In this document: positions 36,528 through 60,714 of the stretch, piece after piece
How positions within the stretch are numbered: position 1 is the first letter of the stretch
Layout: each line of letters begins with the position of its first letter
DNA from: Craspedostauros australis
Lineage: Eukaryota
Direction: 5' to 3'
Length of the DNA: 64,000 nt
NCBI GenBank assembly: GCA_030167865.1
Contig: JALAGF010006090.1
Coordinates: 1-64,000 of the forward strand
Notes under the pieces: model-generated
Seen by the model: only the letters and a program-made list of their open reading frames with translations
The model's database searches: none
Told to the model about the DNA's origin: nothing
Program-made: the position numbers and the translations under genes

Positions 36528-37982
36528 ATGTCCGATTCCGACTCTGACGCCGGCAGCGACCAGGGAGAGCAGATCCGAGTCTCCCTGACTTTGGCGAAAT
36601 CCGTGAAGGATCGCTCGTTGGAAGTTCCATCGGAACCCATCGCCGTTCCATCCGACATTGGACGCAAGGGTCTTTCCGCCGTCATCAACCATCTGTTGGG
36701 ACGCGATGGCGGCAAGGACAGCGATGACGACAGCGATGATGATGATGCCATGAAGACGAGCGACGGCCCTGCCGCAATTCCGTTCGAATTCGTCCTGACG
36801 AGCGCCACCAACAAGCTGCTGCGGAAGGGCGTGGAGAAGGAAGCCCGGCAGCATGGGCTGTCGTTGGAACGGGCCGTGGAGATCTCCTACTTTCCGGCCG
36901 CGCTTCAACCGGAGCTGTCGGCCGACAAGGAGGAGCTGCCGGATTGGATTTCGGGTCTTTCTGTGTGCGACGATCTGCTGTTTGCGGGGTGCTACGATGG
37001 ATCGATGCACGTGTATGACATTCGAAAGGATGGTTCCGTTCACAGCGTGCTCGCAGATGCAGTGTCAACAGGTCCAGTCAAGTGCATGGACACGAAGAGG
37101 ATGGCAGGAAGAGGCAACAGATCGTCCATTTGGGTGGCTACCGCATCGTTGGCGCACACGCTGCATCTGCATCAATACGATACCACCAGCAAACAGCTGC
37201 GAATGCACGCGTTGTGCAAGCAGGAAGAACAGAGCTCGCCCATCACGAGTGTGGCCTTTGCCAGGGGCAAGCACGACATCTTTTGTAGCGGTGACACCGA
37301 TGGCAACATCTACGTTTGGGATCCCAACACCGTCGAGAACACATCCACGAAACGCGCGAAGCACAGCGATGGTTCAAAGTCATCATCGTCGTCATCGTCA
37401 TCGGCCTTCATCCAACCCAAGATTTCTCTAACTGCCGCGCACACTCAGCAGGTCAGCGGTCTGTCGTGGGGCAATAGCACGCCCGACAACACCAAGAACT
37501 TGGTCACCGGGAGCTACGATCACTCCCTGAAACTGTGGGACGTCAACCGCCAGGACTGCCTCCTCACACTGAACGGTTCGCGCGTCGTCACCTGCTTGGA
37601 TACCTCCTACTACTCCGACGGTGTCGTGGCCACTGGGCACCCTGACTGCACCATCCGGCTGTGGGATCTGCGTGTCTCAGGCAGCGATCAATCCTCCGTC
37701 ATCGTCGACAACACCTTCCGTCCCTCCCACAAGGCGTGGGTGTCGCAGGTGGCCTGGAGTCCGGCCAGTGCCTACCATCTCACCTCCACCAGCCATGATG
37801 GAACCGTCAAGCTTTGGGATATCCGTTCCTCTCTTCCTTTGCACTCGATGCGCGTCTTTGCGAAGGAGGAGAAGAGTCTCAGCCTCGGCATCTTTGACGG
37901 TAGCGGTGAGACGGGCGCGGCCAACGGCATGCTCTTTGCGGGCGGCACAGATTGCATTCTCAAGAGTCTCAAGGCTCAGTAG
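36528..37982 (+). CDS. WDR12: Ribosome biogenesis protein YTM1/WDR12 (NLE domain + WD40)
   Basis: NLE-like N-terminus (PIAVP....RKGLSAVINHLL...PFEF) then PDWISG and WD repeats (TGSYDHSLKLWD, GHPDCTIRLWDLR, SHKAWVSQVAWSP, SHDGTVKLWDIRS). Confidence 0.9.
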   Translation: MSDSDSDAGSDQGEQIRVSLTLAKSVKDRSLEVPSEPIAVPSDIGRKGLSAVINHLLGRDGGKDSDDDSDDDDAMKTSDGPAAIPFEFVLTSATNKLLRKGVEKEARQHGLSLERAVEISYFPAALQPELSADKEELPDWISGLSVCDDLLFAGCYDGSMHVYDIRKDGSVHSVLADAVSTGPVKCMDTKRMAGRGNRSSIWVATASLAHTLHLHQYDTTSKQLRMHALCKQEEQSSPITSVAFARGKHDIFCSGDTDGNIYVWDPNTVENTSTKRAKHSDGSKSSSSSSSSAFIQPKISLTAAHTQQVSGLSWGNSTPDNTKNLVTGSYDHSLKLWDVNRQDCLLTLNGSRVVTCLDTSYYSDGVVATGHPDCTIRLWDLRVSGSDQSSVIVDNTFRPSHKAWVSQVAWSPASAYHLTSTSHDGTVKLWDIRSSLPLHSMRVFAKEEKSLSLGIFDGSGETGAANGMLFAGGTDCILKSLKAQ

Positions 37983-38239: not shown

Positions 38240-38265
38240 ACGTCATTGCACTGGCGTTGACGTCA
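38240..38265. promoter_or_regulatory. Paired TGACGT/CRE-like boxes upstream of the MFS gene
   Basis: ACGTCA at 38240 and TGACGTCA at 38258, about 310 bp upstream of the ATG. Confidence 0.4.
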
Positions 38266-38419
38266 CGGCATCACGTGTGCGAGAACAACGACACGCGTCG
38301 CTTGTTCTTGTGGACAGAATGACTTCTTTGGGCCCGCGAAGTTGCTTGTCACTCCTTCACAACAACGACGACGACGACAAGACTCCAGAAGACACAGGAG
38401 GCAAAGACAGTCCATTTCA

Positions 38420-38451
<32 letters not shown>

Positions 38452-38572
38452 CAAACAAATCAAAGCAACGCATCGAAGAAACGCGACGAATACAGCACTC
38501 CACGACATTTCAATCTACTTCGATCAATTGCATCGCTCGCAGAACTCCCAAACCATTGCGTTGATCGTTGAC

Positions 38573-40132
38573 ATGCCGCCACGGGAGACCTTCGGCGGCG
38601 GCGAGGCCCGCAATCGTCGAGGAGCGGCACAGCAGCAGCGACAGCAGTTGGGGCCTCAGAATTTCAATGGCGATGCTGCCAACCAGCGCGCCGCCTACGC
38701 TCGTGCGACATCCTCGTTGGACATGGAGATTGCGGCAGCTTCCGACGACAACGACAACGATGTCAACGACAAACGCTCACATTCCAACGACTTTGTGGTC
38801 GGCACCGCGCTTCCGCTGCTGGTGTTCATTGACATGTTCGCCGTCTCCTTGGTCGTGCCGTTGCTCTTTCAGTACTACATGATGGCGGGCGTTGCCAACG
38901 CCACGCAACGAGAATTGCTTTCCTCCGTCTTCAGCACCTCCCAGATAGTCGGAGGGCTGGTCTTCGGGGCGTTGACGGACGCCAAGTGGCTCCGACGCAA
39001 GACCATCCTCTACCTCTCCTTCGGCGGATCCGCCGTGTCCTACCTCATGATTGCCTATGGAAACTTCCAGCTTCTGCTGGTCTCGCGGGTCCTGGTCGGC
39101 CTCGTCAAGCAGACCATGACGGTCACCATGTCCATGATCACGCAATTCACGACCGAGGACGATCGCGCCGTGCACCTAGGCCGCTTGCAATCGGCAGCGA
39201 CGGCAGCTTGGATCGCAGGACCGACCGTCGGTGCCTTTCTCTTCACGTGGGATTCCAAGGCGCCCGCGCTTGCAGCATGTGGCTTGTTTGCGATCATTAC
39301 GGTGGCATCGGCCGTGCTGCTGCCGGAAGATATTGAAACGTCGTCATCGAACAACAACAGTAACAGTGGTAGTGGTAGTGGTAGTATGGAAAACAACAAC
39401 AGCAGAAGCGGCGTTGGCGGCAATAGCAAGAAGCAAGCGCAAGGTTCATTCTGGGAAAACCTCAAGCAATGCTTCAGCTCCCGAAATTTGGGCTTCGTCA
39501 TCGCATCCCACCTCCTGTTCTACTGGATCAACCGCTCCACTTCGTACTCCAGCATGGGCAGCTACTACGAGGACATGTACGGATTGATGCCGCACCACCG
39601 TGGGTACATTCGGAGCTACCAATCCGTCATGCAATTCATCGTGCAATCCGCTCTCATCGGGCCCGTCTTGCAATTCGTAGGCGGCGAACGTCAGGCCTGC
39701 TGCCTCGCGACCTTCGGACTGGCGATTGCGACGTTCGCCGAGACGCAGCAATCCATGCCGCTGTTCCTCGCCATCATCTGCCCCATCATCTCGCTGGGCA
39801 TCGCCATGCTCACGATCTCTCTCAAGGCTCTGCTGACCAACATCGCACCGGCCGACAGCATCTTCTCCGTCTTCGCGGCCCTTGACGTGCTGCAGAATGC
39901 TGCGGCCGTGACTGTTCCCTTCTATCGGACACAACTGTTTGCAGTCTTGCCATCGCGTGGCGCCGATTCCATGGGAATGAGTGGCGATCCTGACGCTGTG
40001 GCGTGGGCATACTCAGGTGCCGTGCATTGGTTGGTAGCATCGTGCGCAATGACGTTCCTGCTGATGCAAAATGGAGAAGGCAAGCGAAGGCAACCTCGCA
40101 AGCAGCGGTACACGCAGAATAAGACAGTGTGA
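38573..40132 (+). CDS. Major facilitator superfamily transporter (DHA1/SLC22A18-like)
   Basis: About 12 hydrophobic helices; D in TM1 (VFIDMFAVSLVVPLL); motif-A-like GALTDAKWLRRK; SRVLVG; IAGPTVGA. Confidence 0.88.
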   Translation: MPPRETFGGGEARNRRGAAQQQRQQLGPQNFNGDAANQRAAYARATSSLDMEIAAASDDNDNDVNDKRSHSNDFVVGTALPLLVFIDMFAVSLVVPLLFQYYMMAGVANATQRELLSSVFSTSQIVGGLVFGALTDAKWLRRKTILYLSFGGSAVSYLMIAYGNFQLLLVSRVLVGLVKQTMTVTMSMITQFTTEDDRAVHLGRLQSAATAAWIAGPTVGAFLFTWDSKAPALAACGLFAIITVASAVLLPEDIETSSSNNNSNSGSGSGSMENNNSRSGVGGNSKKQAQGSFWENLKQCFSSRNLGFVIASHLLFYWINRSTSYSSMGSYYEDMYGLMPHHRGYIRSYQSVMQFIVQSALIGPVLQFVGGERQACCLATFGLAIATFAETQQSMPLFLAIICPIISLGIAMLTISLKALLTNIAPADSIFSVFAALDVLQNAAAVTVPFYRTQLFAVLPSRGADSMGMSGDPDAVAWAYSGAVHWLVASCAMTFLLMQNGEGKRRQPRKQRYTQNKTV

Positions 40133-41783: not shown

Positions 41784-43097
41784 CTATGACTTAGATTCAG
41801 CAATAAGCTCATCCAGGAAGTTCAGCGTTTCCTCCTGGTGGACCTCGTCGTACGGTGTTTCGTAGATCGCCGCTCTCATCATTACCTGGATCGCTGATTC
41901 CAAGTCGCCCTTCTCCTTGTAGCACAACGCCAAGTACTTGTGCGAGTCCGGGAGATACCGAATGAAGGAAAGAACGAGCACGGACATGTCGAGGCACGCC
42001 TGTTTGTCTCCCAATTCGAAGCAACAACGTTGCAAATCCATGCGTGTGCGGAAGAGGAATCGGTCGTCTTTGCTTCTGGCTGCCCGTCGCACTTCGACCG
42101 TCAGCTTCTTCTCGAGTTTCTTCAAGATGGTAAAGGCCTCTCGCCACTTTCCCATTGCCATGAAAGCTTCTGCGCGGGCCAATTGCAACCCGAACGGTCT
42201 GCTGGCTTCGGTGACGGCCAAGTTGCCCGAGAAGCGGAAACCAAGATCGCATGCGTTCCAGAAGACGAGATGAATGTCCGTCGTCTCGTCATCTGGGAAC
42301 TTGTGCTCGACCCAAAAGTCGTGCTCATCTTGATAGTACACATCCTGCTTGTGATCCTCGAACCGCCTGATCTCGATTTGGACGATCTGGTCCAATACCT
42401 CCAACGCCTCCTCGTGGCGGTTGAGCATCGGCAGGATCGCTGCCTTGATGTACAGCGCCCTGAGATGGGGAGATGGGCTGTGTCGGAGCATCCCCTCAAT
42501 GAGTTCGAGGGCCTTCTCGTTGAGCAGATTGGCGTCCTCCATGTTTCGCTTGACAACCAGATTGATGGCATGAGAGACCAAAGTGTGGATCTTCTCCAGC
42601 TCACGGAATTCGAAGTGATGCACCTCGGACTTGCAGTGGGGACACGGCAGCACTGGCTTCGTGCCGGTGTTGAGAGTTGCTCTCTGCGCGCGCTGGTGTG
42701 TCACCAGGCACTTCCTGCAGAAGCCATGGCCACAATCGACCACAGTAATGCAAGAATTCTCATCCTTGTGCCAGCAGATGGTGCAGTTGGGGTTTTTGGC
42801 TGGTCCGTACGAATTGCCCTTGCACACTTTCTCGATCAGGTCCTTCGCGACGATGTCTGGAGCTCCGTAGGTCGTTCGCACCCTGTCGTACATGGCAGTG
42901 CAGGGCGTCTTGTGCTTCTTCCAGCTCGCCTTCTGGCACGCCTTGGAGCAGTAAAAGACGTCCTTGCATCTCGTGCATCGCAACCGAGCACCGGGATTGT
43001 GGCACCCCCTGGCATCGCAGACGATAGAATCGCGTGGGATGGCAGCGCGTCTGTCGGCGAGAGACTTGTTCTTCGCGGCGCCATTGGCATCTGCCAT
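41784..43097 (-). CDS. MYND zinc finger + RING finger + TPR-like protein
   Basis: MYND CDARGC...CTRCKDVFYCSKACQKASWKKHKTPC; C3HC4 RING CTIC...CGHGFCRKC...CPHC; TPR-like helices (LNRHEEALEVLD, MGKWREAF, KGDLESAIQVM). Confidence 0.88.
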   Translation of the reverse strand: MADANGAAKNKSLADRRAAIPRDSIVCDARGCHNPGARLRCTRCKDVFYCSKACQKASWKKHKTPCTAMYDRVRTTYGAPDIVAKDLIEKVCKGNSYGPAKNPNCTICWHKDENSCITVVDCGHGFCRKCLVTHQRAQRATLNTGTKPVLPCPHCKSEVHHFEFRELEKIHTLVSHAINLVVKRNMEDANLLNEKALELIEGMLRHSPSPHLRALYIKAAILPMLNRHEEALEVLDQIVQIEIRRFEDHKQDVYYQDEHDFWVEHKFPDDETTDIHLVFWNACDLGFRFSGNLAVTEASRPFGLQLARAEAFMAMGKWREAFTILKKLEKKLTVEVRRAARSKDDRFLFRTRMDLQRCCFELGDKQACLDMSVLVLSFIRYLPDSHKYLALCYKEKGDLESAIQVMMRAAIYETPYDEVHQEETLNFLDELIAESKS

Positions 43098-43883
43098 CGT
43101 TACTTCGTCTTGCTCTGCTGTTGTTTCTGGTGTTGCTTCTGGTGGTGTGTGTGCGTGCGTGTATGGGGGATGCTTGTGCTTTTATGTGGAGATTGAGTGA
43201 GCATCCGTGGGAGTTGCTGCGTGGTATAATAGACGCTGCGAGGGGGTGCGATGTCCCCGAATTGCCATCACGTGCATGGATGTCAACGTTTGTGAGTCGT
43301 CGTACGTGCACAGACGAGGTTCGTTTCAGTCTGGCCTCATTCTTCGCCAAATCGCCTCGAATCATGTTGTTCGTCGCGTTTGGTGATGGTATCATTTTGT
43401 ACCCTTGTCCGACAAAGTAGATGTACAGCGCACGTGCCATGTTTGTTCTGATGCGATACTGTCTGTTTTCTGGTGACGTCTTCGTTCGGTGCCATCAAAC
43501 GCCAATTATCCATGAATGAAAAGAACGATGAGTCAGAGAGGTCTAACAGATTCGGTGGTGACAAAGAAGAAGATGGAAGCTCGAAAACGCCAAAAAATGA
43601 AGCGATGATGGATGATGTGTCACCGCGAAAACAGTGATGACCGTGCCATCCGCGATGTGACTGGTCTCGACAGCCACAAACAGGAGAGGACATCAACAAG
43701 TCGCGACGAGTTCCTCGCCAACGAAATCCGCAAGGCTCGCTAGATTCTGCACGAACAAGATCCATCTGTGCATGATACGCACATGCCTGTCCGCAAAGAC
43801 ATACAATAGCAACAAAGAAAGAAAGCACTCGAGTATTGCACTCCATCTTATCGGTCCTTCAAACGACACTTCGCAACGGCTGG

Positions 43884-45137
43884 ATGAAACTCAGTCAGAC
43901 CTTCCCGACCTGCATGTTCCTTCTTCTCCGTGGTGGTGGAGGTGTTGGTAGTGGCAGAACCGCATTGGTTCGTGCATTGGCAAGCGATTCGGCGTCTTCC
44001 TTCTCGAGACGACCGCGAAGCGCGGTAGATGGAGATTCAGCATCGGCAGCTCGATTCTCGTCTCTTTCTGCAACCGCACCATCTTCCGTTGGACAACGAG
44101 GAACACCAACTTCGCCTGCCACAACCAGGCTATTCTCCACCATCGAGAAGGAGCTAACGACAACTGCGAGTACGATGGTCGACGCCAACGGTGAGCCTTA
44201 CCCAACCGAGATGACGGAAGATGAAAGGTACCTGTTCGATTTGAACGGGTACATCATCATCCGCGGGGTGCTGACAGAGGATGAGGTCCGACGCGCCAAC
44301 GAGGCCATCGACAACCATGCTCACGAATTTGTGGAACGCGGAGAGGGCGCGCTGCGCAATGCCGTCGAGGGCACCAAGATGTACGGCAGCGGCCCCGGTC
44401 GCAAGGACCTCGGCGGGTGCTTGGAGTGGGGCGAGATCGAATCCCGCGTCTTCCAGAGCATCCTGGCTCACCCACGGTTGCTGCCCGTCTTCAATGGCAT
44501 CCTGGGCGAGGGATACCGCATGGATCACCTACCCATGGTTCTTGCGCAGGACAAGGGAGCCGAAGGATTCCGACTGCACGGCGGCACAATCGACTGCAGT
44601 TCAGGCGAGTACAATCCTTACCTCGCGTACACATGCCAGCACGGCACACTTCGATCGGCGCTGCTGGGATGCAACGTCCTCTTGGCGGATCACAGCGCCG
44701 GGTACGGCGGATTCTGCGTCGTGCCGGGCTCGCACAAATCCAATTTCAAGATGCCGGCAGGCATGGTGGATGGTGAGAGGTATGCCGAATACATCCAGCA
44801 GCCCGTGACGAAGGCTGGTGATGTCATCCTCTTCAGCGAGGGCACCGTGCACGGGGCCTTGCCTTGGACCGCCGACACCCAGCGCAGAGCGTGCCTGTAC
44901 CGTTTCTCTCCGTCCACCAACGTCTACGGACGTTCCTACTTTGGCCACGAAGGTGGCGGGTGGCCGACCAAGATGTACGAAGGACTTTCGGAAGCAGAAC
45001 GCGCAGTGCTGGAGCCACCGTACGCCAACCGTCTGGATCGCCCGACGGTGCGGGACGATGGTTCTGTCGAGGTCCAGTCTAGGGGCGAACGCAAGAAGCT
45101 TCACGATCAGCAGGTCTTTGGTACCAAGTACTTTTGA
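43884..45137 (+). CDS. PhyH-family Fe(II)/2-oxoglutarate oxygenase with atypical H-x-G motif (start 43884 or 43914)
   Basis: YLFDLNGYIIIRGVL, GGFCVVPGSHK and KAGDVILFSEGTVHG...RR are PhyH-fold hallmarks. The S/R/A-rich N-terminal extension resembles an organelle presequence. Confidence 0.88.
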   Translation: MKLSQTFPTCMFLLLRGGGGVGSGRTALVRALASDSASSFSRRPRSAVDGDSASAARFSSLSATAPSSVGQRGTPTSPATTRLFSTIEKELTTTASTMVDANGEPYPTEMTEDERYLFDLNGYIIIRGVLTEDEVRRANEAIDNHAHEFVERGEGALRNAVEGTKMYGSGPGRKDLGGCLEWGEIESRVFQSILAHPRLLPVFNGILGEGYRMDHLPMVLAQDKGAEGFRLHGGTIDCSSGEYNPYLAYTCQHGTLRSALLGCNVLLADHSAGYGGFCVVPGSHKSNFKMPAGMVDGERYAEYIQQPVTKAGDVILFSEGTVHGALPWTADTQRRACLYRFSPSTNVYGRSYFGHEGGGWPTKMYEGLSEAERAVLEPPYANRLDRPTVRDDGSVEVQSRGERKKLHDQQVFGTKYF

Positions 45138-51262: not shown

Positions 51263-54200
51263 TCATGTGAACATCGCCTTCATGTCGGCCACCGTCAGCA
51301 TCTTCAAGGATGCAGCATCTCGGCCGACCGTACCGTCAAACACGAGGCGCTTCTTCTCTTGGAGTTGCAGCACGCGTTCTTCCACGGTGCCTTCCGCGAT
51401 GAACCGCACGGCGCGGATGGGCCGGAACTGTCCCAAGCGGTGGGTGCGGTCGATGGCCTGCGCTTCGGCCGCGGGATTCCACCACGGATCCAGGAGGTAG
51501 GCTTCGTTCGCCACTGTGAGGTTCAGCGCAACGCCGCCGGCCTTCAATGACATGAGGAGCACACGCACGGAGGGATCGCCCTTGAAGGCCTTCAGCGCTT
51601 GGTCTCGCGACTGAACGTTCATCCCGCCATGAATGATGCGGACGCCGATGCCCAGATCGTGCAGGCAAGGGTCGGAATGGAGCCGCCAACGCACGAGATC
51701 CAGCATGTTCACGAATTGGGAGAACACCAGCGCCTTGCTGCCCGGACGCTCGCGACGCATGCGGACGAGTTCCTGCACGAGCGCTTCCAGCTTGGTGCTT
51801 GTTGAAAATTCGGCCAGGTTGATGCGACGGAGGATGGACCCGCTGGAAACGTGCGTCATCTGGCGCAACGATGGCATATTCTCTGTGGGTTTCCCGACAG
51901 CGGCAGCGCTCGGACCGTCCTTGTCATCATCATCACCTGGGACTTCCAGCGTGCCGTCGTCGACCAGGTCCGACGAAGCCTGATTCAGATCGATGGAGAA
52001 GGGGGCGCTGCAGCTCGGGCAGGCCGTGCCATCCCTGTTGGTGCCGTCGAGCACTGGCGTCATGAAGTCGATGACGCAGCTCCGGCAAAAGGCAGCGCCG
52101 CAACAGGAGCTGACGACGCGATCCGTCGGCGGTTCGTTGCAAATGTCGCAATCGACGGTGCCGTTCGCGATCGGTCTTGCGTTGAGCTGCTGCTCGGCCG
52201 CTTTGGCCATGTTCCTCTTGGAGTAAACGATAAGGTACGGGTGATTCACGGCTTGGCGCATGCGGCTGAGCAAGTCGAAGATGTGGGAGTAGTTGTTCAG
52301 CAAGGTGCCCTCCGCAACGAAGTCGTTGAAGGAACTCTTCGTTTGGTTGTAAAGTGCGTTGTAAAAGTCCTCCTCGATGGGATGCAGGCGGATTGTGCGG
52401 ATAGTCACGAGCCGGGGCGGTAGATTCATGTCAGCTGCGCGCGTTTGCTTTGTGCGTCGAAGCAGGCACCTGTCCAACACCTCCTCCTTGAGCATCATCA
52501 TTGCACGCCGTCCGTCGCGTTGGTAACCATCGCGTTGGATGGGATTGAGGATGTGCTTGTTGAAGTGGGAATAGTGCTGCACCGAGGCGTGCCCACAGTC
52601 CTGGCACTTTTGGTGCAGCATACGATAATGCAGACTCTTGCAGTCGCAGCCCTGTGCGAGTGTGTCGATGGATACAACCACCACACACCAACAAGCCAAT
52701 GAACCAACAAGCCATCACGCACATAGAGTGTAATAGAGCAAGAAGAAGAAGACGTGTCAGTATCAGCAGCACGGCAAATGATAGAGCAGCGTGAGCATTG
52801 AAGGGCCTCCAATCCAGCCTACGTTGATGTCGTTTCAGGTGCACCCGCACTGATACTTTCAATCCACCACAGTCACCACCACATCAACCCACATCAACCC
52901 ACATCAAACCGCATCAAACCGCATCACGTCGCAACGCATCATACAACGTCACGCGCTAGGAATGCTCCCTGACTTACCTCCTTGCGGCAGAAGTAATGTG
53001 CCATCGGGTCGATGCGCAGGAATCGAATCAAGGAGTACAGTTCTCCGACACGGTTCTGCAACGGCGTTCCCGACAGACACCACCGGTTGACGGAAGTGAG
53101 TGAGAATGCTGCGGCAGCTGTCTGGCTTGATCGGGACTTGATCATGTGCGCCTCGTCGAGGACCACTCTCCACCAGCACATAGTGTGGAGGTGACTGGCA
53201 CGAGAACCCGCCATCGCCTCTGCCATCAGCTTGTCCAGGTCAATACCCTCCATCGGGTCAGCCTTGCGTCCATTGTTGCGATCATCGTCAGAACTCTCAG
53301 AGTCGCTGTCATCCGATGAATAGTCACCATCATTCGGTTTTCCCTTGTTCTTCCCCTTCGCTTTGCCTCTTCCTTTCCCCTTTGCCTTGGCACCCTTTCC
53401 TTTCTTCTTCTTCTTCTCCTCCTCCATCTTCTTGGCAGCCTTGTCTTTTGCTCCCTTGCTGGGCTTTTTGTCCTTCTCTTGCTTGGCTCGTCGCAAGGCC
53501 AGCTTTTGCTTCTGGCGAACCCGTTCCAACGCAGAGTCATCCGAATCCGAGCCCGAACCTGATCCGCTGTCCGCCGATGAATCATCATCGTCATCGTCAG
53601 AGGTTGTTCGTTTGCGTTTGCCAGTTTTGTTCCCCGCGGTTTTGCGCGATGCTGCTTTCGATTTTGCCTTGCCATTGCCGTTGTCATTCGCCTTGCCCCT
53701 TTTCTTCTTTGGCACGTCGATACTGCCATTGTCGCTGTCATCCTCTTCGGTCTCAAGGTTGGTCACGACACTGCCGTCGTCATCGTCACCACTGCCGCTA
53801 ACACTCTCCTTTCCATCCTCATCGTAAATGTCCTCGACTTCTTCCTCGTTTCCCTTCTGCCTCGTCATCGAACTGAGTCGTTTGTTGGCAGCTCTTGCTG
53901 CGGATCGTGACGGCCGCTTGTTCGTGGTTGCAAGATACTGGATCTCCTCATCGACGGAAAGGTCGCTGTCGCTTTCGTAGTTGCTGGAGCTCTTGACGTG
54001 GATGGTAGGCTTCTTGGCTGCGACCTTGGAGCTCTTCGATTTCGGTTTCGCTTTTGCTTTGGAGTTCCTGCCTCTTCTGGGTTCCGCTTTCACTGCCACC
54101 ACTTGCTCCTTCTTGACTTTAACCGTTTTGGTTGTTTTGGTGGGGAACTGCTTCTTCTTGGATGAGGCCTTCTTCCGGACTGATTTCTTCTTCGCGGTCT

Positions 54201-57200
54201 TTGCCATCTTGCCACCGTCGTCGCTGCTATCATCATCGTCACTGCTACCATCCTCCCTGTTGGCCGCTTCCTCGCGATCTCTGGTACGGCGTTGTCGTGC
54301 CTGGGCTTCTGTTCGCTGAGCGCCCTCTCCGCAAAAGTACTTCAAGTGCACGTGGAGCTTGTCGATCTGTGCAGATATCGTTCCGTTCATCATGTTGATC
54401 ATGTTGGCATATCAGATTATATCGGCGCAGAGGTCCGGTTAGCGATTGAACCATAGCATCCATGCGACGAATGTGCAACCAGTTGCACCCACACGCACAC
54501 CCGCGATCGCACACACACACACAAGAACTCACCTTATATGTACCACCGCAATTCGGGCATTTCACCTTGTTGGGAGACACCATCTTTCGGAAATCAGCCT
54601 CCAGCACTTGGTACGTCGTGAGTACGACATCGTACTTCACCAGCATCTCACGAGGCATGTCCTTGGCGCGGTTGGGACCGTGGTAAATGCCAACCGTCAA
54701 CGCCGTTCCGTTCGTAAACTTCTCGATCTCCGTCTTCCACTGATACAGCGCGATTACTGGGCATATCACCAACGTTCCCGCACGGCAAGCACTGCCGACC
54801 TTGCCTTTCGTTGCCTTGGGAAGGATTTTCTTGGGGATGTTGATCATGTTCATCTCATGATCCCAATCCTCTCTAGCCCGATTCCACAGCCCTTCCTCCA
54901 GTTTGCGCTGCTCCACGTCGGTCGCACCTGGCGGATGCTTGGCGCCTGGCTGAGCATGCTGGAGCTTGGGACGGTTGTCCAAGATGGTGGTGATGGTTTG
55001 CAGCGTTTTGCCCTGATCATACATGTGGATCGTTATCGTTGTCGTTATTGTGGTCGTCATTGTCAAATGGTCATTGTTGGATGATTGAAGCATCCGGACG
55101 AGGTGTTGTGAGTTGGTGGAATGAAACATCACACACTCCACACAGTAGCAGAGCAACAGCACACATCACTCTTGACATGGTCGCGAGAAAAGAAACAGAC
55201 AACCGACATAACCACAACCACAGCCACATCCGCATTGCGATTCTACACTCACCATGCCCATCTCGTCTGCAAGGATACCGCCCCGAACCTCAGTGCCGTT
55301 GACCTCCTGGCAGTACATCCATGATGCTCCCTCCACCTGGAACGGAAGCAACGACGCTGTGAGCCCCGCTGGCGCCGAGCGCGTCTCTCCGGTGAACCCA
55401 GCCTGCACAAGTTCGTCCGCGTGCAATTCCTGATTCTCTTGTTCGATCTCCAGCTTGGATTCTTCGATGCGGGCCTGCAGCTTGTCCTGATCCTCTTTTG
55501 ATAATTTCTTCCAGCCACCAATCTGCTGGACGTCGATGACGTCCTCGTTGAAAATGACGCAGGCCGGGTGGCGATACACCACGTATCCTGGCCGACCACG
55601 GAAAGGTGGACGATGCGATATGCGGATGCTGGCCTTGTCGATCTTGGAATCGCATCGACGGCACGTGGCGCGTGAGGTTGGGGCGTAATCCACCTTGTAC
55701 GGGACCTGGGTGTACGACACATAACTCTCCTCGTCCTCGTCTTCGTTGGCATTAACGATGATCAACTTGGGTTTCTTCCTTTTCGGTGCGGCAGCCTTCT
55801 TTGCTTTTGGTTTCGCTTTCGCCTTGCCTTCGCCCTTCTTGGTTTCTTCATCTTCGTCGGTATCGGATGTCGCCTTGGCAGCGGCTGGCTTCTTCGCAAG
55901 AGAAGCAAGTGGCGGATCTTCTGCTTCATTCGTACGACTACGAGTACGACTACGAGTAGCGTTTGCATCCCTATCACTTGCATCCTCTTTGTCCTCGTCC
56001 TCTTCCGACTCGTCGCTCCCTTTCTTTTTCTTCTTTGCGCTGGCGCGGGCAGCCGCTGCGCGTCTTCCCCTTCTGCTTCCTGCGGTGTCTTCCTTCTTCA
56101 CCTTCGTGCCTGCCTTTGACTTGGGCTTCGCCTTGGGTTTGGTCGCAGCAGACACTACCTCATCGACTTCGTCCACCTCGTTGCCATCGTCATCGTCGTC
56201 ATCCTTCTTAACTTCTTTCTTCACCTTGGCAGCTGATTTCTTTGCAGTCTGCTTGCGCTTCGCGGCTGGTGTGCTGAGCTTCTTACCCTGTCTAGCGACA
56301 GCCGCCTTCTTGATTGCCTTGCCTGGCGGTTGTTCTGTAGCATCATCCGCCACCATGGCGGAGCCCGTTGGTTCTGGTTGCTTGCTTGCTGCTCTTGCGG
56401 ACCTCTTGGCTGCCGCAGCCCGGTCGATGGCTTGAATGCGCGAGCTGGATCGTGTCTTGCGGCGGCTCCCCTCCACCACGACCAAGACTTCGATGTCACT
56501 GTCTGCCTCGACATCCGCGCCGCCATCCTCTGCGTCCATCTCCTTCGGTTCCTTGTCTTCGTCTTCCTCTTCATTGCCGCCACCGTCAGCGGCAGCTTCT
56601 GCGGCAGTTGCTGCAGTGTCGGCGGTGGGATCCTGTGGTGTCTCGTCAGCCACCTCGACGACTTCTTCAGGGCCAGGTAGCTTGTAGATGGTCTTGGTGC
56701 GTTGGAAGAGCTTGCCTTCCTTGACGCCGGTCTTGAGTGCTGACATGTACTGCGGCTGGCTCCATCCTGCTGCCTCCTCGCTCTCGCTCATCTGCGACCG
56801 GATGCATTTCTTGATCGCGTGGATGGAGGAACCATTGCGATCCTGCAGTTCCTTGATGGCCTCGATGATGGAAGGCAGGTAATCGAGAGCGGATTTGGAT
56901 GCCGTCTTTGGCGTTCTCTTGTTGGACTTGGGCTTGCGATGTTTTGATTTTGCGTCGGGCTTACTGGCTGTTTCATCGGCGCCAGCACCGTCGCTGTTGC
57001 CGACATCATCTGTATCCTCGATGAGCTCGATGTCGTCCATCTCATCCAACGGCGGAGATGGAGTGACGCGGGGGGAACGCTTGGGTGCTTTCGCCTTTGC
57101 TTTTGCAGTCGATGATGTTGAAGGCGCCTTCTGTTTCTTGGCGTCCGCAGATGCGTCCTCCGTCTTCTTCTCGTTGCCGTTGGCATCCGCGATGATTGCT

Positions 57201-57589
57201 GCGTCGTCCTCGTCATCCTGAGAGTCCTTCTCCTCCACAAACGGCTTCACGGCACTCGGTGCAAATGCGCGCGTGACAACGATCTCGCTGTCATCGTCAT
57301 CATCGTCGTCGTCGTCATCACCAACATTCGATTTGGCTTTGCCACGTTTGCCGCCTCCACCAGCCTGCTCCAACCGCACGAGGATACCGTCATTGAATCG
57401 CTTGCGTCCCACGGCGTAGGTCGCATCGAAGCCGACCACGTAACCCAGTTCGCTCCTCGCACCCTCGCTTCCGGGTGCCGCCGTTGCGCAAGATCGGCGT
57501 GGTCTGCCAGAGCGCATCAACGATGGCGCAGGATGGTTTGGATGCACCAAAACCTTTTGGTTGATCTCGAACAGCGTTTGTGTTGCCAT
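51263..57589 (-). CDS. RAD16: RAD16-like SNF2 ATPase/RING protein with N-terminal linker-histone (H15) domain and PARP-type zinc finger; exons 57589-55253, 55012-54533, 54366-52978, 52651-51263
   Basis: [68 protein letters not shown], an internal [23 protein letters not shown] and [21 protein letters not shown]. Three phase-0 GT..AG introns. Confidence 0.92.
52878..52927. repeat. Degenerate 10-bp tandem repeat (CCRCATCAAM) in RAD16 intron 3
   Basis: Read directly from the sequence. Confidence 0.8.
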
Positions 57590-58369
57590 CGCGATGGAGG
57601 GAAACTTGGTCGTTGTCGTTCCGTTGCTGTTGCTCTTGTTGCTGGTTGTTGTCACTTGGTTCGAATGGTGGTTGTTGCTGTTGCTTGTTCTGGATGATGA
57701 TTGTTGTTGCCGTTTGCTTGTTCTGAATGATGATTGCTGCTGTTGCTCTGCCAAGGCAATCCTTTCATCACCATTGCTGTTGATGTTCGTCTCTTCCCTC
57801 CGCACTCGCGATGTGTTTGGCGGGTTGGTCGCCGTGTTGATCGCAGTGCCTCGCAGCCAACCAGCTCAGGATGGACAGAACTTCACTCCGACTTCGGATT
57901 CGAGTGGAATTTGTACCACAGGGCACGTTTGATGTCCACAGGAACATCTTCGGCGTCCCCAAGCCCCTGATGCTGTCAGAGAGATGCAGAAGGGAGTCGA
58001 GACCTATTATACTTGGACAGCGTATCCGTTGTTGCTGGTGGTGGTGTTGCCGTCTCATCAAGCGACGCCTCAGCATACTGTCCTCTCTCTGGAGAGATGA
58101 AAAGTATGGACAGGAGTGTAGCAGTTCCAAGTTGGAGCGGAGGACAGAACAACTGCTTTGTGTGGCTCGTAGTAGTTAGTCTACGAGTATAGTATAATAT
58201 GTATTATATGACACAGTTATATTCCATGCTCAACTCCAAGTAGTACAACATCCAAACGTGGGCGGACAACATACCCAACGCATCCCATGCGCATACGTCC
58301 TCCAGTACCCTGACCATCCATTTCAGGCCAGCGCACTTCCATCATGCAATTTTCCGCCTCCATCTCTGC

Positions 58370-59098
58370 TCACGCTGACACAGGTTTGGCGCATTTGCGT
58401 CCTTCCCGAATGCCGGTCTCAGGACACTCCATCTCCTTCCAGCTCACGGGGATCATGGGCTGCTGAGACGTTGCCGAGACGGCATGAATGACACCCAACT
58501 GCGGTTCGGAAGTCGACAGGAAGTACCGTCGCATATCGCCCATGGCCACGACGCGCGCGAGCACAACATCGTTGGGCTGGAAGCACTGATCCATGGTGAA
58601 GACGGCGTCCTTGTCACTCGATGAGGAGGCATCATTCGAGGACGACGCTGTATTGGTGGTGCGAACATCTTCCATGCGAATGCAAGCGTCATGGCCGTTG
58701 CCATGCAAGACGCCTGCCGCTTCGGCCACGGGGATGTGCACGAAGGCCAGATGATTGGCGATCCGTATCACGCGCCCCAGCACCAGCTGTCCGACGCTGA
58801 GCACCTGCGAGGTTGCGTTCGGCTGCGTCGCTTTGTGGATGCAGCATTGGAATTTGGGCATGTCGTCTGTGTTCATTGTTGTGTCTTGCGTTGATGATGA
58901 TGACGATAATGATGACGATGTTGGTGGTGGCAGCTCCACCGGCTTGACCTTGAGAGATCCGGTGAGGGATGCGTAGATGTGTCCCCCTCGGTTGTACGTT
59001 CCGACGCCCGGAAGGACCTGGCGGATCGTCCCGATGCGGTCGCCGGGCACGACGCTGGCACCTATCTCGTACCGCAGAGTCGGAAGGGTGTCGGTCAT
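58370..59098 (-). CDS. CSL4: Exosome complex component CSL4/EXOSC1
   Basis: VVPGDRIG...PGVGTY...HIYASLTG; S1-like IRMEDVR...FQPNDVVLARV; YFLSTSEPQLGV; MIPVSWKEMECPETG..E.RKCAKP. Confidence 0.93.
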   Translation of the reverse strand: MTDTLPTLRYEIGASVVPGDRIGTIRQVLPGVGTYNRGGHIYASLTGSLKVKPVELPPPTSSSLSSSSSTQDTTMNTDDMPKFQCCIHKATQPNATSQVLSVGQLVLGRVIRIANHLAFVHIPVAEAAGVLHGNGHDACIRMEDVRTTNTASSSNDASSSSDKDAVFTMDQCFQPNDVVLARVVAMGDMRRYFLSTSEPQLGVIHAVSATSQQPMIPVSWKEMECPETGIREGRKCAKPVSA

Positions 59099-60714
59099 TT
59101 TTCTGAAGTTTGATGTGGCAGGTATGGACACAGAGAGCAGCAGCGTTTTCGTCTTCTGGGATAGATTCGTATTGGTCCGAGCAGCGTTGCTTTCCTGCAC
59201 TCGTCCGTCAACACTGGCGCAATACTCGGCGGCGGTAGTATGAACAGTGTTGCAAATAATAGTTCATAATACTTGGGTTGGACCATTGACGCCATGGCCA
59301 TGAACGCCCACAGGATCGTGGACACGATCATTCGCAATCATCGGTGGCATCAACCTTTGGCTCTTCGCTTCATTTCTTGTTCCACGTTTTCGCCACAAAT
59401 CGATTCTCCACATCTCGACGTTTGGTTGGTGATGTTGGAGTCCACAGAGTCGAAAGAAATGTGCGCGACATTGACGTCATAGTACTCAAACAGTTATTCT
59501 GACCGTTAACAAACCCTTGGTTGATTGGCAGCTGCTTGCTCTGATTTATGATGCGACATGGATGAGACACTTCTTTTTATGGCGAAGCGCATTCGTTTGT
59601 CCACGCAAAGGCATGATGATTCGTCTTGTCCATCGCCCCAAAGCCGGAACGGAACAACGAACGCTTCTGTCTGCGATGAATGGCGCGTAGACGCCCACGT
59701 ACACGCTAAAGCACTTTTCGTGCGCTTCAACAAGACGGACACATTCCGTGATCGTATCTCCCCGTACGATTCCTCGCTATGGCATTTGCGACAGTCAGTG
59801 TCGTGAACGGTGTCATCAGCCAAGAAGAGTCCATCGTGTCTTCCACCGCTGACAAAAGACCGAAAGGCGGACATCGAGCTGTCATCAACAAGCGGCGAGC
59901 ATCCACCCATCCATCCATCCATCGATCCATCGAATAGCTCGTCTTGCAGCGCTCCTCACATCAGGACGCTTCGATCCCTCTTGGTACTTCTCCGCACTGC
60001 TCTGTGCTGTGTGCTGTGTGCTCTGAAGAAGGTGAGGATCTCACCGCTCAAGGGCATCCATCCTCTAAATTGAGAGACCAAACGCAGGACTGAACTGGGT
60101 TGGATCGGATCGGATCGCATAACATTGCGTTGCTTCCAACCAGGCTGAACTGGATCGCAGGTGGAGCAAGAAGGGTGATTTCTAACACCAACGATCCGTT
60201 TCAATTGGGTCTTCGATACTCTGCTATTCTCTGTTCCTTTGAACGGTCTGCAGGAGGTGAAGAAGGACGGAGCCTCGGCAGCAACATTGCTTGCCCCACG
60301 TAGCAGGCGGCTGGAGATCTCTCTCTCTCTCTGGCGTCAATCGCGTGATCGTCGCGCGTTGGTGGGAACTTTGAATTGGGGATGAAAGAAGGTTGGACCA
60401 AAAGGGACAGCAGAGGACTGGAACGAGACAAGCGAAGAAGCTTGAGGTGAAGGATTGATCGGTCGCCAATCTCGAAGCGGCACCGATCTTTGAGTGCGAG
60501 GCAGGTCCAAACAGGAGCAAGAGCGTGTGTTACTCTATTCTGCCCCAGCTCGTGCAAGGACGAGCACGAGTAAGAGCACCTTCTTCCCTTGTCCAACCAA
60601 GCCAAGCTGGACGAGGCAGAGCCACTCTGATTCAAACACTGTCCGGCGGCACACATCCCGTCTCTTTTGACTCTGCGTCATTGTTCGGCTGCGACTTCCG
60701 ACACATCTTCCCAA

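What the first reader, a model, noticed from the sequence alone, without database searches (positions are those of the whole stretch)
55478..56881. RAD16-like ATPase fused to a linker-histone globular domain and a PARP zinc finger
Seen, within one uninterrupted exon ahead of the SNF2 motifs: an H1/H15 winged helix ([25 protein letters not shown]...[13 protein letters not shown]...YKL, 56678-56881), an H1-tail-like K/A/P-rich tract, and a PARP-type finger ([18 protein letters not shown]....IRI...YRHPAC...[12 protein letters not shown], 55478-55699). Known: yeast Rad16 has neither domain and works with Rad7 in global-genome NER; H15 binds nucleosome dyad/linker DNA; zf-PARP senses strand breaks. 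Inference: a self-targeting chromatin repair enzyme combining nucleosome reader, break sensor, translocase and E3.
Basis: partly seen in the sequence, partly recalled or inferred. Interest (0 to 1): 0.72.

Follow-up and report, generated by a model that had tools for sequence, protein, structure and literature searches.

The report
Diatom Rad16-type ATPase with H15 domain
A diatom gene for a Rad16-type DNA-repair motor protein carries a PARP-style DNA-break-sensing zinc finger, as its diatom relatives do, and also a linker-histone domain seen in none of them, an unusual but not unprecedented domain mix.

Summary
A minus-strand, four-exon gene (51266-57589, 1864 aa) has a 779-codon first exon. 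Pfam finds in it a Linker_histone/H15 domain (aa 241-298, 41 bits, cut-off 22.4) and a zf-PARP finger (aa 634-707, 48.8 bits, cut-off 39.3). The SNF2 domain starts 43 residues after the finger. All three splice junctions align without gaps to transcript-derived diatom homologues.

The finger fused to the SNF2-RING ATPase is not special to this gene. It is present in 125 of 128 relatives scanned, from pennate and centric diatoms.

The H15 domain is special. None of 232 Pfam-scanned relatives has it, nor any of 235 by local phmmer. It lies in a variable slot between a conserved N-terminal domain and the finger. Relatives carry nothing, a second finger or a Tudor domain there.

The K/A-rich tract is a family trait, not an H1 tail brought in with H15.

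No RNA data, own genome or close congener was available. Translation of H15 in the main isoform, and any function, are therefore inferred. Verdict: a new variant of a known kind, with human SHPRH as precedent for H15 in a SNF2-RING enzyme. Moderate interest.

The parts
51266..57589 (-). Whole coding region of the gene. Four exons, three phase-0 GT-AG introns, 1864 aa, stop codon at 51263-51265.
   Evidence: Exon boundaries were read from the sequence. The spliced CDS is 5592 nt with no internal stop. The junctions align without gaps to homologues, including the transcript-derived P0043 and P0089.
55253..57589 (-). Exon 1 (aa 1-779), from the first ATG to ...ADEMGM.
   Evidence: There are 0 stops in frame and a coherent codon-position GC pattern. 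No GT[AG]AGT donor lies inside it. The only three such donors in the gene are the three intron donors.
57362..57571 (-). N-terminal conserved domain (aa ~7-76, motif NDGILVRL at aa 66-73). It carries a ~27-aa insert relative to homologues and matches no Pfam family.
   Evidence: A profile built from 33 homologue N-termini hits only this ORF among the window's 632 ORFs (16.3 bits, E 1.8e-4; next best E 0.86). A smaller 9-sequence profile was not significant (E 0.33). Pfam finds nothing (protein 1). The domain is distinct from the Pfam Tudor domain of some relatives.
56696..56869 (-). Linker-histone H15 winged-helix domain (aa 241-298).
   Evidence: Pfam PF00538, 41.0 bits (cut-off 22.4), E 2.3e-10. 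Hho1p globular domains at E 0.004-0.05. The nearest ESM Atlas clusters are all PF00538, but the score is only 0.84. Predicted H-H-H-E-E order at low confidence.
56465..56695 (-). Acidic tract (aa 299-375, 33% D+E).
   Evidence: Composition.
55730..56464 (-). K/A-rich basic low-complexity linker with acidic blocks (aa 376-620; 19% K, 20% A, 5% P).
   Evidence: Comparable tracts precede the finger in relatives without H15.
55469..55690 (-). PARP-type zinc finger (aa 634-707). Ligands are C643, C646, H674 and C677.
   Evidence: Pfam PF00645, 48.8 bits (cut-off 39.3). PARP1 fingers at E 7.5e-13. Ligands invariant in 183 of 183 sequences.
55253..55342 (-). Start of the SNF2 ATPase domain (aa 750-779). 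The Walker A motif DEMGM|GKT is completed across intron 1.
55013..55252 (-). Intron 1 (240 nt, GTGAGT...CAG).
54533..55012 (-). Exon 2 (aa 780-939), SNF2 lobe 1. It ends in the first half of a C2HC zinc knuckle ([21 protein letters not shown]).
   Evidence: SNF2-rel_dom 57.5 bits. The knuckle is continuous across the junction in all six aligned sequences. Homologues score weakly on PF13913 zf-C2HC_2 at this place, below its cut-off in most and above it only in P0129 (29.9 against 27 bits).
54367..54532 (-). Intron 2 (166 nt, GTGAGT...CAG).
52978..54366 (-). Exon 3 (aa 940-1402). It holds a ~370-aa K/D/S-rich insert (about 53194-54306), followed by the DEAH box (VVLDEAH) and SNF2 motifs.
   Evidence: SNF2-rel_dom 77.8 bits at exon residues 388-457. 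Composition. Homologues also have a long gap between SNF2 profile positions ~120 and ~116.
52652..52977 (-). Intron 3 (326 nt, GTAAGT...CAG). It contains a short run of GATG(C/T)GG(T/G)TT decamers.
51266..52651 (-). Exon 4 (aa 1403-1864): a Cys cluster, the end of SNF2 lobe 1, the RING-like finger and Helicase_C.
   Evidence: Best solved relative is Rad5 (6l8n), E 2.9e-43.
52010..52150 (-). RING-like finger (aa 1570-1616): C-x2-C-x11-CC-x4-C-x2-C-x18-C-x2-C. All eight candidate ligands are Cys.
   Evidence: zf-C3HC4 17 bits, below the cut-off of 21. The CC pair and the missing His are shared by all 11 diatom sequences aligned. The three more distant relatives lack the CC pair: two (P0234, P0011) have C-G-H-V-F-H and P0228 has C-S-C-T-F-H.
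51431..51793 (-). Helicase_C (SNF2 lobe 2).
   Evidence: PF00271, 70.2 bits.

Best explanation
This is one nuclear diatom gene. It encodes a 1864-aa Rad16-type SNF2 ATPase/RING enzyme.

Domain order:
- a conserved N-terminal domain of unknown fold;
- a linker-histone H15 winged helix;
- an acidic and then K/A-rich disordered linker;
- one PARP-type CCHC zinc finger;
- directly after it, the split SNF2 motor, which holds a C2HC knuckle, a long charged insert, an all-Cys RING variant and Helicase_C.

Shown:
- The domains, their order and the reading frame.
- The splice junctions.
- The finger-motor fusion is the common diatom architecture.
- H15 sits in a variable slot between the N-terminal domain and the finger. 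Relatives carry nothing, a second PARP finger or a Tudor domain there. Two further relatives have an HMG box upstream of the finger, but the N-terminal domain was not detected in them.
- H15 was found in no relative.

Inferred:
- The finger brings the translocase/E3 to nicks, gaps or other DNA discontinuities, as PARP1 and DNA ligase III fingers do. These could be repair intermediates.
- The slot module tunes which chromatin the enzyme docks on.
- In this lineage an H15 module was acquired. It would dock the enzyme on linker or dyad DNA of nucleosomes, in the manner of H1 and by analogy with SHPRH.
- The basic linker would add non-specific DNA affinity.

The enzyme would then act like Rad16: ATP-driven DNA translocation or torsion plus ubiquitin ligation in global-genome repair.
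For: Domains: Pfam hits above the gathering scores for H15 and zf-PARP, and SNF2 and Helicase_C throughout the other exons. PDB sequence matches to Hho1p and to PARP1 fingers. CCHC ligands invariant in 183 of 183 sequences.

One gene:
- 0 stops in 779 codons, against 7 and 31 in the other frames, with a coherent GC1>GC2<GC3 pattern and AAG bias in every segment.
- GT[AG]AGT occurs only at the three intron donors.
- The junctions are seamless against P0043 and P0089 (both transcript-derived) and four others. Identity to P0043 is 55.5% over 1184 columns.
- The N-terminus upstream of H15 matches the N-terminal domain of the homologues: E 1.8e-4, the only hit among 632 ORFs. The motifs DGI[LMT]V[KR][LFM] and [RK]VTPSP each occur once in the window's 80,458 ORF residues. 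Both are here, in the homologues' order. H15 is therefore internal to the protein, not an upstream gene.
- The next gene upstream is an exosome-subunit-like ORF at 58373-59263.

Family-wide finger: 8 of 8, 60 of 60 and 57 of 60 homologues have zf-PARP. Named sources include Seminavis, Mayamaea, Thalassiosira, Cyclotella, Nitzschia and Skeletonema.

Slot: of 114 homologues with both the N-terminal domain and the finger, 86 have no Pfam domain between them, 25 have a second finger and 3 have a Tudor domain. The spacing is 124-387 aa (median 213), against 558 aa here. Two further relatives have an HMG box before the finger.

H15 unique: 0 of 232 by Pfam and 0 of 235 by phmmer. None was found by an H15-only search. 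None of the best 150 representatives aligns over H15 in its best stretch.

Precedent: SHPRH contains an H15 domain (PMC6055012 figure legend). By its title, PMC6702750 describes SHPRH as a nucleosome-stimulated ATPase (search listing).
Against: - No transcript evidence: no RNA run was listed and no genome is held. Internal Met codons at aa 351 and 412 could start a shorter isoform lacking H15.
- H15 is a singleton. With no orthologue carrying it, purifying selection could not be tested, and it could be a recent neutral acquisition.
- Its wing is shorter than the Pfam profile. The match covers profile positions 8-63 of 74.
- The structure model is poor (pLDDT 54.3) and Foldseek gave no significant match (best E 0.49).
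- The support for N-terminal orthology is modest. A first 9-sequence profile gave E 0.33. The motifs and the 33 training segments were chosen after I had seen the window aligned, so there is some circularity.
- The tree does not resolve the window's position. It has no branch with strong support and a long end branch of 0.8, so 'gain' and 'replacement' cannot be told apart.
- Rad16 orthology rests on automatic names and on 42% identity to a Toxoplasma protein named RAD16. It does not rest on a phylogeny with reference Rad16, Rad5 and SHPRH sequences.
- The RING scores below Pfam's cut-off.
- Every functional statement is inference.
Confidence: 0.6

Rival explanations
1. The H15-coding stretch is in frame but is not part of the main protein. 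Transcription or translation would start at an internal site (Met 351 or 412), or a cryptic intron would remove it. The working enzyme would then be the ordinary diatom finger-Rad16, and H15 would be a leader or a minor isoform.
For: - Internal Met codons exist at aa 351 and 412, downstream of H15.
- Weak donor-like sites GTAAGC (codon 209) and GTAAGA (codon 435) lie in exon 1.
- No RNA data could be obtained.
- Homologues manage with 124-387 aa between the N-terminal domain and the finger.
Against: - A Pfam-significant domain kept in frame with no stop over 871 codons, with coding-like GC3 (0.71 in the H15 segment), is not expected of an untranslated leader.
- The conserved N-terminal domain lies upstream of H15 in the same frame. 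The orthologous start is therefore upstream of H15.
- No strong donor lies in exon 1.
Confidence: 0.15
2. H15 is translated but is a recent, functionally neutral capture of a linker-histone gene fragment into a disordered linker that tolerates insertions. It would add nothing to targeting.
For: - It is a singleton among 232-235 relatives.
- It sits in a low-complexity, length-variable region.
- The wing is shortened and PDB similarity is weak (E 0.004).
- The window's branch is long (0.8).
Against: - The domain still scores 18 bits above Pfam's cut-off, with the GSS..AIKK and G.L...Y.L signature intact.
- The same slot holds other chromatin or DNA modules in relatives: a second finger or a Tudor domain. 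An HMG box lies before the finger in two others. This suggests the slot is used functionally.
- SHPRH shows that the combination is viable.
Confidence: 0.2
3. The junction of H15 with the Rad16 gene is an assembly or contamination artefact.
For: Only that no second genome, read set or close relative could be checked.
Against: - The frame stays open on both sides of H15.
- Codon usage is uniform along the exon.
- Orthologous N-terminal motifs lie upstream and the orthologous finger downstream of H15, on the same strand and in the same frame.
Confidence: 0.03

Closest known systems
Diatom zf-PARP-SNF2-RING-Helicase_C proteins. Examples are the Seminavis robusta entry named 'regulator of chromatin subfamily A member 3-like 1' (P0002), the Mayamaea pseudoterrestris hypothetical protein (P0003), the Thalassiosira exigua hypothetical protein (P0009) and the MMETSP transcript P0043.
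   Same: - Same finger directly before the SNF2 domain, with 51-63% identity over aa 620-779.
- Same C2HC knuckle, long charged insert, Cys cluster and all-Cys RING.
- Same N-terminal domain in 114 of them.
- 55.5% identity over 1184 columns to P0043.
   Different: - None has H15.
- The window's spacing from N-terminal domain to finger (558 aa) exceeds all 114 measured (124-387 aa).
- Some relatives carry a second finger, a Tudor domain or an HMG box instead.
Yeast Rad16, S. pombe Rhp16 and Arabidopsis RAD16 (global-genome nucleotide excision repair, with Rad7).
   Same: - SNF2 ATPase with a RING between the lobes and Helicase_C. ScRAD16's domain list comes from passages of PMC10454142.
- Relatives of the window protein are named 'DNA repair protein RAD16' by JGI.
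- 42% identity over 564 columns to a Toxoplasma protein named RAD16.
- No HIRAN or PHD domain.
   Different: - Per PMC10454142, Rad16 has no N-terminal finger or H15.
- The diatom RING lacks the His ligand.
- A ~370-aa insert splits lobe 1.
- Orthology was not tested by phylogeny here. A Rad7 partner could not be looked for because no genome is held.
[quoted passage not shown]
   Same: A Rad5/16-group SNF2-RING enzyme that contains an H15 linker-histone domain (PMC6055012 figure legend).
   Different: - SHPRH also has a PHD finger. No PHD is found here.
- Here H15 is far N-terminal, about 450 residues before the motor.
- SHPRH has no PARP finger in the domain list given in that legend.
- H15 is absent from all sampled relatives of the window protein. 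Its presence in both proteins would then be convergent (my inference).
PARP-type zinc fingers of PARP1, DNA ligase III and plant-type ZDP 3'-phosphatase.
   Same: - CCHC finger with a C-x2-C ... H-x2-C spacing.
- Best solved matches are PARP1 Zn1 and Zn2 (E 7.5e-13). DNA ligase III is weak (E 0.053).
- A ZDP-like protein (three fingers plus PNK3P, P0227) turned up among the hits.
   Different: - Here the finger is attached to a SNF2 translocase/E3, not to a polymerase, ligase or phosphatase.
- There is a single finger here, against two DNA-binding fingers in PARP1.
- DNA-break binding was not tested.

Membership tests
Linker histone H1/H5 globular domain (Pfam PF00538, H15) | Profile match above the curated gathering score. 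| tested here: met
   41.0 bits against 22.4, E 2.3e-10, aa 241-298, profile positions 8-63 of 74.
Linker histone H1/H5 globular domain (Pfam PF00538, H15) | Winged-helix fold: three helices followed by a beta hairpin. | tested here: inconclusive
   The single-sequence AlphaFold model gives H24-38, H42-56, H64-76, E80-83 and E86-89, but its mean pLDDT is 54.3. Foldseek against the PDB found no match at E <= 0.001. Winged helices, including H1 and Hho1p, appear only among non-significant rows.
Linker histone H1/H5 globular domain (Pfam PF00538, H15) | Binds nucleosomal dyad or linker DNA. | not testable with these tools
   Needs EMSA or nucleosome-binding assays.
PARP-type zinc finger (Pfam PF00645) | Profile match above the gathering score. 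| tested here: met
   48.8 bits against 39.3, E 1.2e-12, profile positions 1-86 of 87. PARP1 fingers at E 7.5e-13.
PARP-type zinc finger (Pfam PF00645) | The four zinc ligands C-x2-C ... H-x2-C. | tested here: met
   C643, C646, H674 and C677 are invariant in 183 of 183 aligned sequences.
PARP-type zinc finger (Pfam PF00645) | Recognition of DNA nicks, gaps or ends. | not testable with these tools
   Inferred from what is known of PARP1 and DNA ligase III only.
SNF2-family ATPase | SNF2-related N-lobe with Walker A (GKT) and a DEAH box, plus Helicase_C. | tested here: met
   SNF2-rel_dom scores 57.5, 77.8 and 34.2 bits on exons 2-4 and Helicase_C scores 70.2 bits. DEMGM|GKT is restored by splicing. 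VVLDEAH is visible in exon 3.
Rad16 subfamily (Rad5/16 group) | RING finger inserted between the two ATPase lobes. | tested here: inconclusive
   An eight-Cys cluster sits at the right place (aa 1570-1616) and is conserved in 11 of 11 diatom sequences aligned. Its Pfam zf-C3HC4 score of 17 bits is below the cut-off of 21, and the His ligand is absent.
Rad16 subfamily (Rad5/16 group) | Groups with Rad16 rather than Rad5, HLTF, SHPRH or Ris1 in a phylogeny. | not tested
   No reference sequences of these subfamilies could be obtained. Indirect evidence only: the JGI names 'DNA repair protein RAD16' on relatives, 42% identity to Toxoplasma 'RAD16', and Rad5 as the best solved structure.
Rad16 subfamily (Rad5/16 group) | Absence of the HIRAN domain that marks Rad5 and HLTF. 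| tested here: met
   No HIRAN hit at E <= 1 on any exon.
Rad16 subfamily (Rad5/16 group) | Works with a Rad7-type partner. | not testable with these tools
   No genome is held for the window.
SHPRH | H15 together with a PHD finger, embedded in the SNF2 region. | tested here: not met
   No PHD hit. H15 lies about 450 residues before the SNF2 domain. The definition is taken from the figure legend of PMC6055012.

The most novel reading that the evidence does not exclude
Diatom Rad16-type enzymes may be self-targeting repair remodellers. A built-in PARP-like finger would read DNA breaks or incision intermediates directly. An exchangeable slot module would choose the chromatin substrate: a second finger, a Tudor domain or, here, H15, with an HMG box before the finger in two further relatives. 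This arrangement could replace the accessory targeting factors used in yeast. In this lineage the H15 module would let the enzyme take the linker histone's place on the nucleosome dyad at damaged sites. That would couple H1 displacement or ubiquitination to ATP-driven remodelling.
Probability: 0.12. Interest if true: 0.7.

Novelty: new variant of a known kind. Interest (0 to 1): 0.42.

Why it matters
If the protein is made as predicted, it shows three things.
- A whole algal group has fitted its Rad16-type repair motor with a DNA-break-sensing finger.
- The region in front of that finger is a slot where chromatin-binding modules are swapped during evolution.
- H15 in this slot has a parallel in human SHPRH, probably arrived at independently.

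This gives a concrete, testable idea of how global-genome repair enzymes find damage in chromatin when the yeast or mammalian targeting factors are absent or different. It also offers natural domain-swap variants for experiments. The practical weight is limited. The finger fusion is already visible in public domain annotations. The H15 addition rests on one genome and has no expression data.

Tried and rejected
- RNA evidence: the look-up of sequencing runs listed no RNA holder for 54400-57900.
- Own genome: none is held. Other H1 genes, a Rad7 partner and paralogues could therefore not be looked for.
- H15-only homologue search (aa 228-312, lengths 428-1364): 108 candidates, none at E <= 0.01.
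- Metagenome loci with the H15 segment: 595 pattern matches, none confirmed by tblastn.
- Representative search with aa 225-779: 357 hits at E <= 0.001. Among the best 150, none has a best stretch starting before query residue 124, whereas H15 lies at query residues 17-74.
- Structure: the single-sequence AlphaFold model of aa 215-320 is poor (pLDDT 54.3). Foldseek against the PDB gave no match at E <= 0.001. I had no H15 homologues to build an alignment, so no second fold was run.
- ESM Atlas: the nearest clusters are H15 families, but the top score of 0.84 is below the level that counts as more than a lead.
- Idea that the N-terminal domain is the Pfam PTM/DIR17 Tudor: rejected. In P0002, P0006 and P0236 the conserved N-terminal domain (aa ~2-78) and the Pfam Tudor (aa 138-213) are separate. 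Pfam finds nothing in the window's first 110 aa. BLASTP of aa 1-224 against P0002 gave only E 0.04.
- Idea that H15 replaced the first of two fingers: not supported. The window's nearest rows are one-finger proteins, and its clades of 2, 8, 19, 32 and 40 tips contain no two-finger protein, though support is only 71-79. No remnant of a first finger was found.
- First N-terminal profile (9 sequences): 6.1 bits, E 0.33, not significant.
- Idea that 'SPYF' in relatives is a relic of an H15 start: considered and left as speculation, since nothing supports it.
- Earlier findings of this scan: none.
- Literature: 'PARP-type zinc finger' + SNF2 gave 0 papers. zf-PARP + RAD16 gave 0. PARP + zinc finger + SNF2 + diatom gave 1 unrelated paper. 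A Toxoplasma paper lists zf-PARP among the domains of that parasite's SNF2-type proteins in a figure legend (PMC12215852); I did not see which protein. A look-up in PMC6702750 failed on a term-syntax error and was not repeated.
- Cluster look-up for taxon names of ten relatives gave no organism names.
Full report
**Observation**

The finding lies on the minus strand. The frame 55166-57865 is open from stop to stop for 899 codons. It has its first ATG at 57589 and a GTGAGT donor at 55252. This gives a first exon of 779 codons.

Pfam finds three things in it:
- Linker_histone (PF00538) at aa 241-298: 41.0 bits against a gathering score of 22.4, E 2.3e-10.
- zf-PARP (PF00645) at aa 634-707: 48.8 bits against 39.3, E 1.2e-12.
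- The start of SNF2-rel_dom at aa 750.

In window coordinates the two domains are 56696-56869 and 55469-55690.

For the finger, phmmer against the PDB gives PARP1 fingers at E 7.5e-13. For H15 it gives the yeast Hho1p globular domains at E 0.004-0.05, aligned over about 70 residues. The four zinc ligands (C643, C646, H674, C677; C-x2-C-x27-H-x2-C) are invariant in 183 of 183 aligned sequences.

A single-sequence AlphaFold model of aa 215-320 has the helix-helix-helix-hairpin order expected of a winged helix. It is of low confidence (pLDDT 54.3). Foldseek on it gave nothing significant (best E 0.49). I therefore rest the H15 call on the profile match, not on structure.

**Gene model**

Three phase-0 introns (240, 166 and 326 nt) with GTGAGT, GTGAGT and GTAAGT donors and CAG acceptors join four exons:
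- 57589-55253
- 55012-54533
- 54366-52978
- 52651-51266

Together they make a 5592-nt CDS with no internal stop, encoding 1864 aa.

Each junction restores a conserved motif: DEMGM|GKT (Walker A), [21 protein letters not shown] (a C2HC knuckle) and FCRKE|GCDCK. Each aligns without a gap to five homologues, among them the transcript-derived P0043 and P0089. Identity to P0043 is 55.5% over 1184 columns. GT[AG]AGT occurs in the gene only at these three donors.

Exons 2-4 carry the rest of the SNF2 domain, a RING-like cluster and Helicase_C. The best solved relative of exon 4 is Rad5 (6l8n, E 2.9e-43).

**Is the N-terminal part the same gene?**

- Exon 1 has 0 stops in frame, against 7 and 31 in the other two frames.
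- Every segment shows GC1 > GC2 < GC3. GC3 is 0.62 in the N-terminus, 0.71 in H15, 0.58 in the linker and 0.70 in the finger, against 0.69-0.76 in the conserved exons. Every segment also prefers AAG.
- The sequence upstream of H15 is orthologous to the N-terminus of the homologues. This is the most telling point.
  - A profile built from 33 homologue N-termini, none from the window, hits only this ORF among the window's 632 ORFs of 60 aa or more. The score is 16.3 bits, E 1.8e-4, and the next best E is 0.86.
  - The motifs DGI[LMT]V[KR][LFM] (aa 67) and [RK]VTPSP (aa 174) each occur once in 80,458 ORF residues. Both are here, in the homologues' order.

Caveats:
- A first 9-sequence profile was not significant (E 0.33).
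- The motifs and training set were chosen after I had seen the window aligned.

H15 thus lies between two orthologous landmarks in one frame, which argues against a separate upstream gene. The next ORF upstream (58373-59263) is an exosome-subunit-like gene.

No RNA run was listed and no genome is held. An internal start (Met 351 or 412) or an alternative isoform cannot be excluded.

**What is common and what is special**

Searching with aa 620-779 gave 10 longer and 139 similar-length relatives. Named sources are pennate and centric diatoms: Seminavis, Mayamaea, Nitzschia, Thalassiosira, Cyclotella, Skeletonema, Discostella and others. There are also two apicomplexan proteins named RAD16, which lack the finger.

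On re-scanning, zf-PARP is present in 8 of 8, 60 of 60 and 57 of 60. The three without it are P0129-P0131. More distant representatives (P0228, P0234) combine the finger with SNF2, SAP and Helicase_C, and P0234 also has a RING. The finger-motor fusion is therefore the rule in this family.

Linker_histone was found in 0 of 232 scanned relatives. The E thresholds were 0.01, 1e-4, 1e-3 and 1e-3. A local phmmer of aa 225-320 against 235 relatives gave a best E of 0.026 at 9 bits.

An H15-only search, a metagenome locus scan and the full-library representative search found no relative with H15 either. The best identity to any relative is about 63%. The organism's near kin are therefore not sampled, and H15 may be shared by an unsampled genus-level group.

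**A variable slot**

The conserved N-terminal domain was detected in 114 relatives that also have the finger. Between the two lie:
- no Pfam domain in 86;
- a second PARP finger in 25;
- a PTM/DIR17-type Tudor domain in 3.

The spacing is 124-387 aa, median 213. Two further relatives have an HMG box before the finger. The window has H15 in this slot and the longest spacing, 558 aa.

I built a tree of the finger-plus-SNF2-start region from 134 rows. Another 49 rows with short N-termini were left out. The tree puts the window among one-finger proteins: nearest P0006, and clades holding Mayamaea and Seminavis. Support is only 71-79, and the end branch is long at 0.8. No remnant of a first finger is present. 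I read this as gain of H15 in a one-finger background, not replacement of a finger, but the tree does not settle it.

**Low-complexity parts**

Directly after H15 comes an acidic tract (aa 299-375, 33% D+E). A K/A-rich tract follows (aa 376-620; 19% K, 20% A, 5% P), broken by acidic blocks.

Relatives without H15 have similar basic tracts. In the 150 residues before the finger, the median is K 15% and K+A+P 30% in 157 homologues, against 20% and 43% here. The 'H1 tail' is thus a family trait. A second charged insert of about 370 aa splits SNF2 lobe 1 in exon 3, and relatives have one there too.

**RING**

The cluster at aa 1570-1616 is C-x2-C-x11-CC-x4-C-x2-C-x18-C-x2-C.
- All 11 diatom sequences aligned share the CC pair and lack the His.
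- Of the three more distant relatives, P0234 and P0011 have C-G-H-V-F-H and P0228 has C-S-C-T-F-H.
- Pfam scores it at 17 bits, below the cut-off of 21.

It is probably an all-Cys RING variant. E3 activity is untested.

**Mechanism (inferred)**

From what is established for the families:
- PARP1 and DNA ligase III fingers bind DNA discontinuities.
- H15 binds nucleosomal dyad and linker DNA.
- Rad16 is a SNF2 ATPase/E3 of global-genome excision repair (PMC10454142, passages).

From these I propose:
- The finger recruits the motor/E3 to nicks, gaps or repair intermediates.
- The slot module biases chromatin docking.
- In this lineage H15 anchors the enzyme on nucleosomes.
- The charged linker gives non-specific DNA affinity.

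SHPRH is the precedent for H15 in a Rad5/16-group enzyme. Its H15 and PHD domains are listed in the figure legend of PMC6055012. The title of PMC6702750 calls it a nucleosome-stimulated ATPase (listing only).

**Comparison and novelty**

The gene is a member of the diatom finger-Rad16-type family, which is visible in public domain annotation. My three searches found no paper discussing it. One Toxoplasma paper lists zf-PARP among the domains of SNF2-type proteins in a figure legend.

The gene fails the SHPRH definition: it has no PHD, and H15 is not embedded in the motor. Rad16 orthology proper was not tested by phylogeny.

I rate it a new variant of a known kind. The architecture is real, and the slot idea is interesting. 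But H15 is a singleton without expression or selection evidence, and domain shuffling in front of SNF2 motors is common.

Noticed in passing
P0135 (protein; domains listed): A 1376-aa representative consists of 11 tandem PARP-type zinc fingers spread over almost its whole length. It was not Pfam-scanned or examined further.
   Followed up: no
Homologues P0012-P0018, P0022, P0029, P0030, P0033 and others: A subgroup of diatom Rad16-type proteins carries two PARP fingers in tandem, as PARP1 does. That is 26 of the 133 with an informative N-terminus. The label needs only 3 changes on the tree, so it is largely one clade.
   Followed up: partly
P0124 and P0125; P0002, P0006 and P0236: Other relatives have an HMG box (65-66 bits) or a PTM/DIR17-type Tudor domain in front of the finger. 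In the three Tudor cases the domain lies between the N-terminal domain and the finger. In the two HMG cases the N-terminal domain was not detected.
   Followed up: partly
window 52010-52150 (-), aa 1570-1616: The diatom RING has lost the canonical His ligand and gained an adjacent Cys (a CC pair). This gives an eight-Cys pattern, conserved in 11 of 11 diatom sequences aligned.
   Followed up: partly
window 53194-54306 (-), exon 3: A ~370-aa K/D/S-rich charged insert splits SNF2 lobe 1 between the C2HC knuckle and the DEAH box. Relatives show a gap of similar size in the SNF2 profile match.
   Followed up: partly
window 57362-57571 (-), aa ~7-76, and 114 relatives: The conserved N-terminal domain (…G.V.V…E.G.V…DGILVKL…F.P..V) matches no Pfam family. 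Its fold and function are unknown.
   Followed up: partly
P0228 and P0234; P0010 and P0011: More distant Rad16-type proteins carry a SAP domain. In P0228 and P0234 it lies between the two parts of the SNF2 domain. The apicomplexan ones also have UBA and lack the finger. P0228 and P0234 have the finger as well.
   Followed up: no
P0227: A protein with three PARP fingers and a PNK3P phosphatase domain. This resembles the plant ZDP type, as far as I recall.
   Followed up: no
window 52860-52940 (-), intron 3: A short tandem run of GATG(C/T)GG(T/G)TT decamers lies inside intron 3. A (GT)n-like run follows the donor of intron 2, near 54505-54525.
   Followed up: no
window 57590-57865 (-): The frame stays open for 92 codons upstream of the first ATG, with a Q/S/N/T-rich translation and a different codon-position GC pattern (0.38, 0.55, 0.62). 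This is probably the 5' leader.
   Followed up: partly
window, other ORFs: The neighbours are ordinary nuclear genes: an exosome-subunit-like ORF with ECR1_N (58373-59263, -), a Nop domain protein (30782-32116, +), a GNL3-type GTPase (18268-19956, -), a WD40/NLE protein (36246-37979, +), an MFS transporter (38261-40129, +), a peptidase M3 in two ORFs (27881-30876, -), PhyH (43776-45134, +), and zf-MYND/TPR (41787-43181, -).
   Followed up: partly
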